NCBI RefSeq assembly: GCF_009914755.1
Contig: NC_060927.1
Strand: one strand, 5' to 3'
Source: the human T2T-CHM13v2.0 reference genome, Homo sapiens
DNA: 64,000 bases
The first letter of the stretch is position 1; every line of letters starts with the position of its first letter. The notes under the pieces were generated by a model. The model worked only from the letters and a program-made list of their open reading frames with translations, was not told where the DNA came from and made no database searches. Of this stretch, positions 18,421-62,476 are shown piece after piece. A program made the position numbers and the translations under genes.

Positions 18421-18443
18421 TCAGAGGTTCTGCTCCATCAGCC
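18421..18443 (-). pseudogene. CPHL1P: Candidate terminal exon (G-LMEQNL-stop)
   Basis: cttcttgcag|GG CTG ATG GAG CAG AAC CTC TGA; phase 1 matches exon 18; minus-strand AATAAA at 18183-18188 and 17733-17738. Confidence 0.5.
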
Positions 18444-19494
18444 CTGCAAGAAGCCCCACAGAGAAAATATTCACATAACTTGAGAGCTGCATGGTATGTT
18501 TTAAATAGTGTACAATATATATGTTCAATAGTTTTCCTAATTTTGAAAGTAATTTAAACTTTACAGAAACCTTGGAAGAAACAGATTACTAGTGAGATTT
18601 ATTATTTCTTAATAAATATCTTCTTATTATTTTCTTAATAAATCTCACGAATAATTTCACTACGTAGAGAGAGTCATCAGTAACATCTCATAAAATTTCT
18701 ATTCAGTCTTCATATACATATTTCAGATACTATTTTGTAGACTGCATTTTTTGCCACCCAATATGATATTATAAGCATTTACTCATTAAAAATTTTAAGA
18801 CATGATTTTTGAAGTTGGATATTTTAGATGATATGTTGCAGTTTTTTACACACATTACAGTATATCATTTGCTTGTTTTCAGTTTTCCATTAGCATAAAA
18901 TAATGTGGTGATACATATTTTTCTGCCTTGTTGATAATTTTCTGAGATCAAATGCCAGGTGGAAATACTGAGTCAAAATATGGGGATCATGATTTAGATT
19001 CCTGCAAGATCTGCAGAACCAATTAACACATCCACCAAAGTATATGCAATGCACCCTATCTCACCACACTGCTATTGATGCTATCATTAAAAATAGATAA
19101 ATATTTGCCAACATATACTCAAAAAGGTATTTTATTGTTGCTTAAATGTGATTTTGAAGTGATTTGATTATTGGCAAGTTTGGATATTTTTATAGGTTCA
19201 AAAGATATTTGTTTTTGATCTTCTATGAATTGTCTGTTTATACCTTATATGTATATCTTATGTGAATCTGGAAATTACATTTAACTCTAGAGTATATTTT
19301 ATCAGATCATGAAAAGTTATCTGAGTTTTACAAAGAAAATAAAACTAGAGTATCTCAGTCATCTCAAAATAGTAATCTTTGAATGAATGAATGGCACATC
19401 ACATTATATGAATGTTCAATGCATTAAATATCCTTACATAAACACTGCATTTGTTTAAATATCACTTCTAATTAATTTAGCCAATGGATCTTAC

Positions 19495-19657
19495 CTTTTC
19501 TTTCAAGTACAGTGTAAGTGCTTTCCATTCCAGCACCAATGTGCTCAAAAACATGGCAATAAAATAACCAGGTTCCAACATCTCTTCGATACATTTTTAC
19601 AGTTCGATAGACCCCAGGAGGAAGGTCATAAACATCAGATTGATACACTCCCTAATT
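19495..19657 (-). pseudogene. CPHL1P: Exon 18 homologue (163 bp), domain 6 copper ligands
   Basis: N*GVYQSDVYDLPPGVYRTVKMYRRDVGTWLFYCHVFEHIGAGMESTYTVLERK; taag| acceptor, G|gtaaga donor; TAG at 19652-19654. Confidence 0.95.
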
Positions 19658-19775
19658 CTTAACAAGGAGATTAAACATCATTACATCGCTTATAAAAGAT
19701 ATCACTTACCACTTGCTATAATTCCCAAATTCTAATATACCTAATTAGGTGACAATTAGAAAGCATTAGGTGCTG

Positions 19776-20177
19776 GGCTGGGCACGGTGGCTTATGTCTG
19801 TAATCTGCTACTTGGGAGGCTGGGGTGGCAGGGGAGGATGACTTGAGCTCAGGAGTTCAAGACCAGCCTGAGCTCCTCATCTCTAAAAAAAAATATATTT
19901 TAAAAATTAGCCAGGCAGTAGTGTGTGCCAGTAGTCCCAGCTACCTGGGAGGCTGAGGTGGAAGGATTGCTTGAGCCCAGTTCAAGGCTGCAGTAAACTG
20001 TGATCATGCCACTGCACTCCAGTATTCCAGCCTGGGTGACAGAGCAAGATCCCATCTGAAAAGGGAAAGGAAAGGGAAGGGGAGGGGAAGGGAGTGGATG
20101 GCAAGAGAAAGGAGGGGAGGGGAGGGGAGGGGAGAGGAGGGAGAAGAAAAGGGAAGGGAAGAGGGAAAGGAAAGGAA
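19776..20177 (+). mobile_element. AluJ-like with (GGGAA/GGGGA)n purine-rich tail
   Basis: Diverged Alu to about 20058, followed by about 120 bp of near-pure purines. Confidence 0.85.
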
Positions 20178-20995
20178 ATCATTAAGCTATTAAAGCTATT
20201 TTGTTCTCTTCTCTGAGTGCACTTGAGGCTTTGGAGGAGAACTAAGACCCAGGACATTCTGGTGTTAGATAGAATGCAAAGAAAATGTTTCACTCTACAA
20301 GGGTACCTGTAGTTTCGTATTGGTGTTAGAAACTTGCCAATGTCTCACACGACCGAGCGCTCTAGATTTCAGAGAACTTCTAGTCTCAAATCCCAAAGGT
20401 TCTAAGTGACATATTTCTAACTTGGGATGTTACGTTGATGTGACATAACATGTTGATGTGAAGGATTGTCATTTCTTGAGATACAGCTAATCAGAAAAAC
20501 TCATTGTTACAGGAAAGAGAAGGGGAGAGGGAGGAGAAGGGAGGAGGAGCTCCCTTGGCATCTGCAGCCAAGTTTGCCTTCTGGAGATTGGGCCTGAGGG
20601 CTGAGGGCTGAGGGCACTTTTTAGCTAATTTCTCTCCTAAGCAGAGAACCCAATGTTTAGGAAACTACCTCTGTAGGCTGCTTAGAATTTTAGATATGAA
20701 GTCCTAGGGCCTAGTCCGGGTGGATTGGAAGAGACTAAAAGGAAGGTGAATTGCTCTACAAAATAAAATAGGAAGTATTTGCAGGATGGTGGTGGGGGTG
20801 GATTGGGGAACTGCAGCTCAAGAGTTCTGAATAATTTCAGGAGAGAAGGGATGTCAGAGAGTCTAGAGAGGAAAAATGTGGAGAAACAAGTCCTGAGGGT
20901 GAGAGTAAAAGGCAAACGAGCTAGAGGCTCTCAGTGATGCATGGTGAAAGGGTAATTGGGGGTGGGACATCTAATGTCAAATGGTAAGTGCTTTC

Positions 20996-21628
20996 TTTTT
21001 TTATTATTATTATTATTATACTTTAAGTTTTAGGGTACATGTGCACATTGTTCAGGTTAGTTACATATGTATACATGTGCCTTGCTGGTGCGCTGCACCC
21101 ACTAACTCGTCATCTAGCATTAGGTATATCTCCCAATGTTATCCCTCCCCCCTCCTCCCACCCCACCACAGTCCCCAGAGTGTGATATTCCCCTTCCTGT
21201 GTCCATGTGATCTCATTGTTCAATTCCCACCTATCAGTGAGAATATGCGGTGTTTGGTTTTTTGTTCTTGCGATAGTTTACTGAGAATGATGCTTTCCAA
21301 TTTCATCCATGTCCCTACAAAGGACATGAACTCATCATTTTTTATGGCTGCATAGTATTCCATGGTGTATATGTGCCACATTTTCTTAATCCAGTCTATC
21401 ATTGTTGGGCATTTGGGTTGTAAACTAGTTCAACCATTGTGGAAGTCAGTGTGGCGATTCCTCAGGGATCTAGAACTAGAAATACCATTTGACCCAGCCA
21501 TCCCATTACTGGGTATATACCCAAAGAACTCTAAATCATGCTGCTATAAAGACACATGCACACGTATGTTTATTGAGGCATTATTCACAATAGCAAAGAC
21601 TTGGAACCAACCCAAATGCCCAACAATG
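20996..21628 (-). mobile_element. Young 5'-inverted (twin-primed) L1PA2-like insertion
   Basis: polyT and antisense L1 3' end to 21420, then a sense ORF2 piece 21419-21628; TSD aatggtaagtgctttc at 20980-20995 and 21625-21640; GAG (not ACA) at the 3'UTR diagnostic site. Confidence 0.93.
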
Positions 21629-61134: not shown

Positions 61135-61278
61135 CTTTTTCTTTTTCTTTCTTTTTTTTGTAGAGACACAGTTTCACTATGTTGCCCAGGCTGGTCTCAA
61201 ACTCCTGGCCTTAAGTGATCCTCCCAACCTGGCCTCCCAAAGAGCTGGGATTACAGGCATGAGCCACTGTACCCAACC
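61135..61278 (-). mobile_element. Alu left monomer (FLAM/J-like)
   Basis: Antisense left arm. Confidence 0.85.
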
Positions 61279-61512
61279 AAGGAAGGCTTGATGGCAGTTC
61301 ACATACTTGCCTTTGAGAATGCAAAGCATTAAGTTATCTTACTGTTTAAAAAGAAAAGGGAGAAAGTTTGGAAATGTTCAGACTAGATAGCTAATGTTTA
61401 AGTTAAATATAATAAACACATATTCTTTATCTTGCCATTATGCAGTTGAGTTCCTTGCAATTTTGAGAAGGGCAAAAAGCTCTTCCAAAGTTGGTTTAAA
61501 AAGTTATCTCCC

Positions 61513-61647
61513 GGCTGGGCACGGTGGCTCACACCTTTAATCCCAGCAGTTTGGGAGACCGAGACGGGCGGATCACAAGGTCAGGAGTTCAAGACCAGCC
61601 TGGCTAATATGGTGAAACCCAGCCTCTACTAAAAATACAAAAAAAAA
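61513..61647 (+). mobile_element. Solo Alu left monomer with perfect TSD
   Basis: Left arm plus A-tail; TSD aaaaagttatctccc at 61498-61512 and 61648-61662. Confidence 0.9.
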
Positions 61648-62032
61648 AAAAAGTTATCTCCCAAGGAATGTAATTTGTAATCATGAGACTATGTGTGTTT
61701 GGCATAGGAAACTGCAATTATTAAAATATTTATTGTGGAGAGATGTTTGTTCACCTAAAATTTAAACTTTGATTGTCATAGGAAGTTAAATTTGCTCATT
61801 AACTTCATAATTAATCTAGTGCTGTTGCTTTGTTGATCTTGTTTTAATGAACCAAATCAGAATTTTCAAAACTCTATATTCCCTTGCAAGTTAGAAACAT
61901 ATCAGCAAAACTTCCTCCTTGCAAGAATTATTAATAAACTGATGATTCTAACTGATTCACCTTAAAACATAAACACAAAAAGGTGGCAGTAATTTTGAAG
62001 GAAGATGGCCGAAGTGAAGTTTATTGGGTTTG

Positions 62033-62105
62033 ACTACCATCTAGTGACCAACCTGAATTATTGGTTGAACTGAGGGTTGGATTTGAGATCGCCATCTAGT
62101 GCTCA
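62033..62105 (-). promoter_or_regulatory. Tandem CTCF-like motifs
   Basis: Minus strand GTCACTAGATGGTAG and AGCACTAGATGGCGA, both close to the CCASYAGRKGGCR consensus. Confidence 0.55.
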
Positions 62106-62263
62106 GAGTCCAAGATGGCAAGTTTCCATTCTTGACTGGAAAACCAAGGTTAAGGCAGGAAAATGGAGTGCCTTGGATAGTAAAATTCCTCTAGGAGAGC
62201 AGAGGACAGCCTACCCATTCTGGTTTACTCTTTTACTGCAATGAGATTTTTTTTTAAAGTTAC

Positions 62264-62476
62264 CTCTTTTACAAGTCAGTATTGGTCCAATAAGTCCCGA
62301 AGCTACATCTCTTGCAGTGTCTATATGGGAATGGTAAATTCTTGTCACACAATTACTGTCATTGGGGCCAGGTCCCTGATGTTCTTCTACATACCACTTG
62401 TAGGTATATTGTTTCCCTGGCTCCAGATATTCATCTTCCTTTTGCAGGCCTGTCGTATTATCAGGATAGATAGCAC
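62264..62476 (-). pseudogene. CPHL1P: Exon 3 homologue (213 bp)
   Basis: GAIYPDNTTGLQKEDEYLEPGKQYTYKWYVEEHQGPGPNDSNCVTRIYHSHIDTARDVASGLIGPILTCKR; HSH ligands intact; tag|...G|gtaac. Confidence 0.96.

What the first reader, a model, noticed from the sequence alone, without database searches (positions are those of the whole stretch)
18421..62476. A nearly intact lost fourth CP-family multicopper oxidase gene
Seen: exons 3-18 all keep GT-AG sites, exact CP intron phases and mostly identical sizes (213, 172, 212, 151, 213, 140, 129, 107, 140, 163). All five disulfide Cys pairs, most copper ligands and many N-glycan sequons are kept. Only three hard lesions occur in about 920 codons, although the protein is strongly diverged from CP. 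Inference: this is an ancient duplicate long kept under purifying selection and inactivated comparatively recently, so it may still be an active, uncharacterised enzyme in other mammals.
Basis: partly seen in the sequence, partly recalled or inferred. Interest (0 to 1): 0.8.

Follow-up and report, generated by a model that had tools for sequence, protein, structure and literature searches.

The report
Known ceruloplasmin-like pseudogene CPHL1P

Summary
On the minus strand, 17 ceruloplasmin-like coding exons run from 62476 to the stop codon at 18421. All have AG/GT borders. They total 2763 nt (about 921 codons) with exactly three disabling lesions: a 1-bp insertion in exon 7, a TAA in exon 8 and a TAG in exon 18.

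Intact predicted orthologues exist in monotremes, marsupials and most placental orders, including orangutan at 95% identity. The gene is a duplicate of CP that arose on the mammalian stem. The human branch shows relaxed constraint.

None of this is new. The locus was described and named CPHL1 in 2006 (PMC1391917), which reported dog and opossum orthologues and loss in rodents. It is now annotated as CPHL1P, and a 2021 paper (PMC8381491) calls it a unitary pseudogene.

One point I did not find in print. All CPHL1 orthologues keep the trinuclear and type-1 copper ligands. They have replaced the acidic Fe(II)-binding residues (CP E272, E935) that CP, hephaestin, HEPHL1 and amphioxus relatives conserve. 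The intact enzyme may therefore not be a classical ferroxidase.

Interest is low for the finding as stated.

The parts
62264..62476 (-). CPHL1P exon 3 (213 nt; phase 1 at both ends); holds the CP His161/His163 equivalents and the Cys155/Cys181 pair
   Evidence: 99% identical to orangutan CPHL1 and 61% to CP
59511..59681 (-). exon 4 (171 nt)
58581..58823 (-). exon 5 (243 nt). It ends in the shortened type-1 copper loop of domain 2; the 4-residue deletion there is shared by the placental CPHL1 models.
55625..55796 (-). exon 6 (172 nt); 56 of 56 residues identical to orangutan
46216..46347 (-). exon 7 (132 nt; 131 without the inserted base)
46296..46298 (-). hard lesion 1: a 1-bp insertion that shifts the frame and gives an immediate in-frame TAA
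   Evidence: The model with one base removed scores best against the orangutan protein and restores the ...GGTYKKL... reading seen in all orthologues.
45155..45295 (-). exon 8 (141 nt)
45186..45188 (-). hard lesion 2: in-frame TAA where orangutan and three Old World monkeys have Lys
44688..44899 (-). exon 9 (212 nt)
42876..43026 (-). exon 10 (151 nt)
41604..41816 (-). exon 11 (213 nt); holds the His637 equivalent (type-1 copper, domain 4)
38717..38927 (-). exon 12 (211 nt); holds the Cys680/His685/Met690 equivalents
38797..38802 (-). soft lesion: a human-specific 3-bp insertion plus Tyr-to-Ile change inside the conserved ...IYIAAEE... domain-start motif
37780..37919 (-). exon 13 (140 nt)
36126..36254 (-). 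exon 14 (129 nt)
34421..34527 (-). exon 15 (107 nt)
33012..33213 (-). exon 16 (202 nt); CP Glu935 is Leu here
30120..30259 (-). exon 17 (140 nt); holds the His975/His978/His980 equivalents. Its 3' end is where the RefSeq CPHL1P span stops.
   Evidence: The ORF passes the Pfam Cu-oxidase_2 cut-off (25.1 bits against 20.4).
19495..19657 (-). exon 18 (163 nt); holds the ...HCH...H....M copper motif. It lies outside the annotated CPHL1P span.
   Evidence: Pfam Cu-oxidase_2 30.2 bits
19652..19654 (-). hard lesion 3: in-frame TAG where orangutan and Old World monkeys have Trp
19559..19561 (-). soft lesion: TAT (Tyr) at the trinuclear-cluster ligand equivalent to CP His1020. This position is His in 54 of 55 CPHL1-type proteins that have a residue there.
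18421..18443 (-). exon 19 coding part (23 nt), ending in the TGA stop at 18423-18421

Best explanation

CPHL1 arose as a tandem, same-strand duplicate of CP on the mammalian stem lineage, after the split from sauropsids and before monotremes diverged. It lies directly upstream of CP. In most mammals it is predicted to encode a secreted, six-domain blue multicopper oxidase of about 1045 aa.

In the human lineage, after the split from orangutan, the gene lost constraint. It acquired a frameshift (exon 7), two nonsense codons (exons 8 and 18), a His-to-Tyr change at a trinuclear-copper ligand and a 3-bp insertion in a conserved motif. It cannot make a working oxidase. It is still transcribed according to published work, but I saw no evidence of function.

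Shown here: the exon map, the lesions, the phylogenetic placement, the conservation pattern and the excess of human-branch changes.

Inferred: (a) Inactivation falls within roughly the last 15 Myr, probably the earlier part of that interval. (b) The intact orthologues are active oxidases. (c) They are not classical ferroxidases, because the Fe(II)-binding acidic residues next to the domain-6 copper were replaced early in CPHL1 history while the copper ligands were kept.
For: Identity of the locus. The hub annotation names CPHL1P here. Passages of PMC1391917 describe CPHL1 immediately upstream of CP at 3q25.1 as 57% identical to CP. I measure 57.25%. Passages of PMC8381491 call CPHL1P a unitary pseudogene.

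Structure and lesions.

Orthologues. One search listed 120 proteins (135 with E<=1e-10 among 155 candidates) and one search listed 120 of 1305. Of the 159 stored from these two calls, 51 are CPHL1-type by pairwise identity. Five marsupial and two monotreme proteins join them by tree and signature, making 58.

Placement. Trees of 47 and 43 rows put the window translation with orangutan (SH-aLRT 97-98). The CPHL1 clade is sister to mammalian CP (100). The AU test rejects an older origin.

Synteny. Read-through gene models in a pangolin (P0001) and a desman (P0268) are CPHL1 followed by CP. Dog and opossum synteny is reported in PMC1391917.

Constraint and its loss in humans.

Secretion. Signal-peptide-like N-termini in 8 of 8 CPHL1 models printed (judged by eye) and no C-terminal membrane segment in the three C-termini printed.

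Substrate site. CP's Fe(II) ligands E272/E935/H940/D1025 and E597/H602/D684/E971 are as given in the review PMC3738974. E272 is Glu in 21 of 21 CP/HEPH/HEPHL1/amphioxus rows and E935 is Glu in 18 of 21. In CPHL1-type proteins E935 is Glu in 0 of 55 and E272 is Glu in 7 of 57. The flanking motifs align unambiguously.
Against: All orthologues are computational gene models; none has been purified or assayed. Gene-model pipelines can hide lesions. One model, a sifaka's, is flagged low quality.

No chimpanzee, gorilla, gibbon or New World monkey CPHL1 row was visible. They may be hidden inside 90% clusters, so the lesions are not dated.

The relative-rate excess is modest (p 0.042 by chi2, 0.06 by exact binomial).

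Several lineages show damaged ligands: a horseshoe bat, goat isoforms and a sac-winged bat. The gene may therefore be widely dispensable rather than firmly functional.

Loss of CP-type Fe(II) ligands does not exclude low-affinity ferroxidase activity. In many placentals the domain-4 site keeps two or three acidic residues.

The AU grouping was chosen after I had seen the first tree.
Confidence: 0.93

Rival explanations
1. The human locus is still a protein-coding gene, as first proposed in 2006. It would make a ceruloplasmin-like protein, perhaps from an isoform that avoids the lesions.
For: PMC1391917 (passages) predicted an ORF and detected transcripts by RT-PCR in CL1 prostate cancer cells and a tissue mix, with two isoforms. 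All splice sites in the window are intact.
Against: Three exons carry frame-breaking lesions. Intron 6 is phase 2 and intron 7 is phase 1, so skipping exon 7 does not keep the frame. Any product ending in exon 7 or 8 lacks the domain-6 copper ligands. Even a read-through product has Tyr at a trinuclear-cluster His. RefSeq calls the locus a pseudogene and PMC8381491 calls it a unitary pseudogene.
Confidence: 0.02
2. The human locus is a dead gene whose transcript has acquired an RNA-level (lncRNA-like) role, for example in kidney or prostate tumours.
For: Passages of PMC8381491 link higher CPHL1P expression to worse survival in KIRC and PRAD. CPHL1P appears in expression lists of other cancer papers. 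A RefSeq enhancer feature at 58305-59504 overlaps exon 5 (hub annotation).
Against: These are correlations only. No perturbation result for CPHL1P appeared in the passages I read. Nothing in the sequence points to a new RNA function.
Confidence: 0.08
3. Intact CPHL1 orthologues are ordinary ferroxidases, redundant with CP. That redundancy would explain the repeated loss in rodents and humans.
For: All copper centres needed for oxidase turnover are conserved. The gene is a CP duplicate. Databases label many models 'ferroxidase' by homology. H940 is kept in 49 of 56 proteins, and Glu at the D1025 position occurs in 20 of 55.
Against: E935 is never Glu (0 of 55) and E272 rarely is (7 of 57). Both are near-invariant from amphioxus to mammals in CP, HEPH and HEPHL1. 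The review assigns E272 a role in electron transfer to the domain-6 copper. H602 is Tyr in 36 of 57 proteins. The review says CP's own domain-2 site, which has Tyr at the corresponding ligand position, is not expected to bind Fe(II).
Confidence: 0.35
4. The duplicate is older than mammals (a pre-amniote paralogue lost in sauropsids), or it is a recent primate-specific copy.
For: CPHL1 branches are longer than CP branches, which could distort placement.
Against: Monotreme, marsupial and placental CPHL1 form one clade, sister to mammalian CP (SH-aLRT 100). Forcing amniote CP together without CPHL1 costs 109.7 lnL (p-AU 1.3e-5). Long-branch attraction would pull CPHL1 outward, not into mammals. 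No sauropsid, amphibian or fish protein fell in the CPHL1 clade.
Confidence: 0.03

Closest known systems
CPHL1 / CPHL1P itself (Glusman et al. [quoted passage not shown]
   Same: Same locus, strand and position upstream of CP. Same 57% identity to CP. Same conclusions: a mammal-specific CP duplicate, absent from rodents, present in other mammals.
   Different: The 2006 paper treated it as an expressed gene. The passages I read neither list the lesions nor discuss copper or iron ligands. They reported only dog and opossum orthologues. The RefSeq span (30120-64370) omits exons 18-19, which I place at 19657-18421.
Ceruloplasmin (CP), the neighbouring parent gene
   Same: Six-domain architecture, signal peptide, five disulfides, trinuclear cluster, and type-1 sites in domains 4 and 6. 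Ten of the exons 3-18 align without a gap.
   Different: 57% identity. The CP Fe(II)-site residues E272 and E935 are replaced in CPHL1. Placental CPHL1 has a 4-residue deletion that removes the His324 ligand of the domain-2 type-1 site. CPHL1 has Met where mammalian CP has Leu329. It evolves about 1.5 times faster.
Hephaestin (HEPH) and HEPHL1/zyklopen
   Same: Same multicopper oxidase family and the same copper-ligand set.
   Different: They form a separate clade, carry a C-terminal membrane anchor and keep the E-E-H-D domain-6 iron site. CPHL1 has no anchor in the C-termini printed and lacks that site.
Other human unitary pseudogenes (CMAHP is named in PMC8381491; GULOP is recalled, not checked)
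   Same: An intron-containing relic at the ancestral locus, with few lesions and intact orthologues in other mammals.
   Different: For CPHL1 no physiological role of the intact enzyme is known, so the consequence of the loss is unknown.

Membership tests
Vertebrate six-domain multicopper oxidases (CP/HEPH/HEPHL1 family) | Significant sequence homology along the whole length, with Pfam Cu-oxidase domains | tested here: met
   The exon 3 ORF matches human ceruloplasmin chains at E about 2e-54. tblastn shows a collinear chain. Of 9 single-exon ORFs, 2 pass the Pfam Cu-oxidase_2 cut-off and 1 falls below it. The orangutan orthologue matches Cu-oxidase, Cu-oxidase_2 and Cu-oxidase_3.
Vertebrate six-domain multicopper oxidases (CP/HEPH/HEPHL1 family) | Eight His ligands of the trinuclear copper cluster | tested here: not met
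   Human: 5 of the 6 positions encoded in the window are His, and the His1020 equivalent is Tyr. Two further positions lie in exon 2, outside the window. Intact orthologues have 8 of 8.
Vertebrate six-domain multicopper oxidases (CP/HEPH/HEPHL1 family) | Type-1 copper sites (His, Cys, His, Met) in domains 4 and 6 | tested here: met
   HCHM at both sites in the human translation and in nearly all orthologues. The domain-2 site is truncated in placental CPHL1.
Vertebrate six-domain multicopper oxidases (CP/HEPH/HEPHL1 family) | Five conserved disulfide pairs | tested here: met
   10 of 10 Cys in the human translation; 50-57 of 58 per position in CPHL1-type proteins.
Ferroxidases in the strict sense (CP-type high-affinity Fe(II) site) | Acidic/His Fe(II) ligands E272, E935, H940, D1025 (domain 6) and E597, H602, D684, E971 (domain 4), as listed in PMC3738974 | tested here: not met
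   Human and orangutan have V-L-H-E and A-Y-K-E. E935 is Glu in 0 of 55 CPHL1-type proteins and E272 is Glu in 7 of 57. In CP/HEPH/HEPHL1/amphioxus the domain-6 site is E-E-H-D in 17 of 21 rows.
Ferroxidases in the strict sense (CP-type high-affinity Fe(II) site) | Measured ferroxidase activity | not testable with these tools
   No biochemical study of any CPHL1 protein turned up in the searches.
Unitary (non-processed, non-duplicated) pseudogene | Disabling lesions in the only copy, at the ancestral intron-containing locus | tested here: met
   Three lesions, a 17-exon structure with introns and tandem position upstream of CP. Whether a second human copy exists elsewhere was not testable here, because the human genome is not held. 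PMC8381491 classes it as unitary.
Unitary (non-processed, non-duplicated) pseudogene | Intact orthologues in related species | tested here: met
   Full-length models exist in orangutan, Old World monkeys, lemurs, carnivores, ungulates, bats, afrotherians, xenarthrans, marsupials and monotremes. All are predictions, not verified proteins.

The most novel reading that the evidence does not exclude
CPHL1 is a mammal-wide, secreted fourth blue multicopper oxidase. Soon after duplicating from CP on the mammalian stem, it gave up the Fe(II)-binding residues that CP, hephaestin, HEPHL1 and their amphioxus relatives share, while keeping its catalytic copper centres. It would therefore be an oxidase with a different, still unknown substrate. 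Humans (by three recent lesions) and rodents (by deletion) have independently dispensed with it.
Probability: 0.45. Interest if true: 0.55.

Novelty: already known. Interest (0 to 1): 0.2.

Why it matters
As stated, the finding re-discovers an annotated and published locus, so it changes nothing by itself.

What remains open is the biology of the intact enzyme. A 2013 review of human multicopper oxidases counts only three (abstract). My searches found no biochemical work on CPHL1. Mouse and rat lack the gene, so the standard models cannot show its role.

Suppose the orthologues are active oxidases with a non-iron substrate, as the ligand pattern suggests. Then cat, pig, dog or macaque would carry a copper enzyme absent from humans and rodents. 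That would bear on comparative copper and iron physiology and on using those species as models.

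Tried and rejected
I replaced it with coordinate-based scoring of AG/GT pairs.

(2) Pfam on single exon ORFs is weak: 6 of 9 gave nothing and 1 fell below the cut-off. Homology rests on the PDB and tblastn results.

(3) The representative-library search returned unnamed proteins, mostly invertebrate. It served only to pick an anchored relative (P0125) that led to named HEPH and HEPHL1 sequences.

(4) The two AU tests are invalid. I had labelled a true CP (P0400, Gracilinanus) as CPHL1, so the constraint was wrong. 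I repeated the test with the label corrected.

(5) seemed to show a marsupial CPHL1 that retained the iron site. It was this same mislabelled CP.

(6) Codon-level dN/dS and dating the lesions across apes could not be done. No orthologue DNA is held, and no ape genome other than the orangutan protein model is available. Chimpanzee, gorilla and gibbon CPHL1 rows, if they exist, may be hidden inside the 31-member orangutan cluster.

(8) PMC9643190 and the four papers did not bear on CPHL1.

(9) I considered structure prediction and left it out. At 57% identity to a solved structure the fold is not in question, and the tool returns no coordinates for inspecting the substrate site.

Full report
**What is there**

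A stop-to-stop ORF at 62214-62501 (minus strand) matches human ceruloplasmin chains in the PDB at E about 2e-54, with 78 aligned residues covering CP 113-190. A word-indexed search for longer relatives of that ORF listed 120 proteins, from 135 with E<=1e-10 among 155 candidates. The top hits are full-length 'ceruloplasmin-like' models, not CP. Examples are orangutan (1049 aa, 96% over the exon), macaques and langurs (93%), cat (85%), horse (84%), and sloth, lemur and tarsier (78-80%). True CP rows sit at 52-64%.

**Exon map**

- tblastn of the orangutan (P0003), macaque (P0012) and cat (P0016) models and of chimpanzee CP (P0066) against the window gives one collinear minus-strand chain.
- I printed each exon with its flanks.
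- I scored all AG/GT combinations near the HSP ends against the orangutan protein. The best-scoring junction at each of the 15 joins was also the one seen by eye.
- Exon 3's acceptor, exon 18's donor and the short last exon were found.
- The result is 17 exons, 2763 nt, all flanked by AG and GT. Intron phases are 1,1,1,2,1,1,0,1,1,2,1,1,0,1,0,1.
- Those ten exons align gaplessly to CP. Among exons 3-18, the other six have net indels.
- CP's own exons 3-19 are outside the window, so equality of sizes and phases is consistent but not directly read. The exception is intron 2, which is phase 1 in both genes (arithmetic on the hub annotation).
- Exons 1-2 of the pseudogene are not in the window. 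The N-terminal 130 residues of the orthologues hit only CP's own exons 1 and 2.

**Lesions**

Reading the joined exons against the orangutan protein shows three disabling changes:

- a 1-bp insertion at 46298-46296 in exon 7, which creates an immediate in-frame TAA;
- TAA at 45188-45186 in exon 8, where orangutan and three Old World monkeys have Lys;
- TAG at 19654-19652 in exon 18, where they have Trp.

Two softer human-specific changes stand out:

- Tyr (TAT, 19561-19559) replaces the trinuclear-cluster ligand equivalent to CP His1020;
- a 3-bp insertion with a Tyr-to-Ile change (38802-38797) falls in the conserved domain-start motif.

All ten disulfide cysteines are present. Both complete type-1 sites (domains 4 and 6) are present. 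Five of the six in-window trinuclear His are present. The translation has 14 N-X-S/T sequons and shares 5 of CP's 7 sequon positions.

**It is a known locus**

The hub annotation names CPHL1P here.

- A full-text search for 'CPHL1P' found 7 papers.
- A whole-word search for 'CPHL1' found 4, one of them an unrelated bacterial strain name.
- I read passages of Glusman et al. 2006 (PMC1391917). They describe a new gene upstream of CP, named CPHL1, 57% identical to CP. It is absent from mouse and rat and present upstream of CP in dog and opossum. They interpret it as a mammal-specific CP duplicate lost in rodents, and detected it by RT-PCR with two isoforms.
- Passages of Sun et al. 2021 (PMC8381491) call CPHL1P a unitary pseudogene and report survival associations in kidney and prostate tumours.
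- A cat corpus luteum transcriptome lists CPHL1 among differentially expressed genes (PMC11959938, one table passage).
- PMC3968011 shows CPHL1 beside CP in a locus figure legend.
- The 2013 review of human multicopper oxidases counts three enzymes (abstract) and was not among the 'CPHL1' hits.
- Searches combining ceruloplasmin-like/pseudogene/hephaestin, ceruloplasmin/unitary pseudogene/human lineage and ceruloplasmin-like/ferroxidase/paralog found no biochemical or evolutionary study of CPHL1 beyond these.
- I did not open any supplements.

**Origin**

I obtained named HEPH, HEPHL1, fish and amphibian CP and amphioxus sequences through an anchored relative.

- A 47-row tree rooted on amphioxus and a 43-row tree rooted on HEPH/HEPHL1 agree. 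Both were run as IQ-TREE LG+G4, quick search, SH-aLRT support.
- The window translation pairs with orangutan (97-98), then macaque (100).
- Placental, marsupial and monotreme CPHL1 form one clade (100). That clade is sister to mammalian CP (100), inside amniote CP (96-98).
- A tree holding amniote CP together to the exclusion of CPHL1 is 109.7 log-likelihood units worse (p-AU 1.3e-5).
- The two AU tests printed must be ignored, because I had mislabelled a true CP. The grouping was also chosen after I had seen a tree.
- The duplication therefore happened on the mammalian stem. This extends the 2006 conclusion to monotremes.
- Read-through gene models in a pangolin and a desman are CPHL1 followed by CP. 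This is independent support for the conserved tandem arrangement seen in the window, where the CPHL1P stop is at 18421 and CP exon 1 is at 10585-10403.

**Distribution**

Of the 159 proteins stored:

- 51 are clearly CPHL1-type by identity to cat CPHL1 against cheetah CP;
- 93 are CP-type;
- 15 are ambiguous.

Among the 15 ambiguous, five marsupial and two monotreme proteins are CPHL1 by tree and signature, giving 58.

By the sources' names they cover orangutan, Old World monkeys, tarsier, lemurs and loris. They also cover colugo, tree shrew, carnivores, perissodactyls, pigs, peccary, hippo and ruminants. A rorqual, bats, a mole, a shrew, afrotherians, xenarthrans, marsupials and monotremes are represented too.

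No rodent, lagomorph, New World monkey, gibbon, gorilla or chimpanzee row is among them. Many rodent CP rows appear in the same lists. Absence of a row is weak evidence, since 90% clusters show only one name.

**Constraint and its loss**

- Orangutan-macaque CPHL1 is 94.2% identical, against 96.3% for chimpanzee-macaque CP. Orangutan-cat CPHL1 is 80.6%, against 87.5% for chimpanzee-cheetah CP. CPHL1 is thus constrained but about 1.5 times faster than CP.
- Human and orangutan differ at 43 of 915 compared positions. With three Old World monkeys as outgroup, 27 changes are human-specific, 14 orangutan-specific and 2 ambiguous. The relative-rate test gives chi2 4.12, p 0.042; the exact binomial gives p 0.06.
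- 22 of the 27 human changes hit residues identical in orangutan, monkeys, lemur, cat and horse, against 6 of 14 orangutan changes (my count; Fisher p 0.017).
- Using recalled neutral divergences (not checked here), the human count is close to the neutral expectation for most of the time since the orangutan split. I infer loss of constraint early in the African-ape or human lineage, within roughly 15 Myr. This is a rough inference, not a date.

**What the intact enzyme probably is**

- Eight of eight CPHL1 models printed begin with a signal-peptide-like segment very like CP's, judged by eye. The three C-termini printed show no membrane anchor.
- Across 58 CPHL1-type proteins each trinuclear His is present in 54-56, with at most one substitution per position. 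The domain-6 type-1 ligands are present in 54-56. The domain-4 ligands are present in 45-54; a few lineages, apparently goat isoforms, have replaced them.
- In 47 of the 58 proteins (the placental models) a 4-residue deletion at the exon 5/6 junction removes the His324-equivalent ligand of the domain-2 site. Marsupials and monotremes keep H-C-H-M there.
- The review PMC3738974 assigns Fe(II) binding in CP to E272/E935/H940/D1025 and E597/H602/D684/E971.
- In 21 CP, HEPH, HEPHL1 and amphioxus rows the domain-6 site is exactly E-E-H-D in 17. E272 is Glu in 21 and E935 is Glu in 18.
- In CPHL1-type proteins E935 is never Glu: Leu 42, Arg 6, Phe 4, Ile 2, Gln 1, from 55 with a residue.
- E272 is Glu in only 7 of 57, and D1025 is Asp in 2 of 55. 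H602 is mostly Tyr (36 of 57).
- The flanking motifs align without ambiguity. Monotremes already show the change.

My best reading, at roughly even odds, is that CPHL1 kept its oxidase core but gave up CP-type iron binding soon after the duplication. It would then act on some other reducing substrate, or oxidise iron only poorly. I did not find this in print in the searches named above, and it needs an enzyme assay.

**Verdict**

The object is an annotated, published unitary pseudogene, so its novelty is 'already known' and its interest is low. The open question worth passing on is the function of the intact orthologues.

Noticed in passing
window 18421-19657 versus the annotated span 30120-64370: The RefSeq CPHL1P span ends exactly at the 3' end of exon 17 (30120). 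Exons 18 and 19, which are 92% and 67% identical to the orangutan protein and carry the third nonsense codon and the stop, lie 10.5-11.7 kb further downstream. That is only about 7.8 kb from CP exon 1.
   Followed up: yes
window 58581-58823 (exon 5) and the orthologue alignment: 47 of 58 CPHL1-type proteins (the placental models) share a 4-residue deletion at the exon 5/6 junction. It removes the second His ligand of the domain-2 type-1 copper site. Marsupial and monotreme CPHL1 keep a complete H-C-H-M site. A mole and a fox model carry odd insertions at the same junction, probably mispredicted splicing.
   Followed up: partly
proteins P0001 (pangolin, 1974 aa) and P0268 (desman, 2101 aa): These database 'proteins' are read-through fusions of CPHL1 followed by CP. 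They are annotation artefacts that incidentally record the tandem arrangement in those species.
   Followed up: yes
orthologue models P0019 (horseshoe bat), P0388 (sac-winged bat), P0032-P0037 (goat isoforms), P0115 (sifaka, flagged low quality): Several lineages have substitutions at copper ligands or fragmentary models. The horseshoe bat has Pro at the CP His1020-equivalent trinuclear ligand, Ile/Asn/Ile in place of the domain-6 Cys, His and Met, and Pro at the domain-4 His685 position. Four proteins, apparently goat isoforms, carry Ser, Tyr and Lys at the domain-4 Cys, His and Met positions. These may be further independent decays of CPHL1, or model errors.
   Followed up: no
window 58305-59504: The RefSeq 'enhancer' feature overlaps CPHL1P exon 5 and most of intron 4, ending just short of exon 4 (59511-59681). 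I did not examine whether its activity relates to the pseudogene's transcription or to CP.
   Followed up: no
protein P0400 (Gracilinanus, named 'ceruloplasmin'): This true marsupial CP has Ile at the otherwise invariant E272 position. It could be a model error or a real exception to the conservation of CP's iron site.
   Followed up: no
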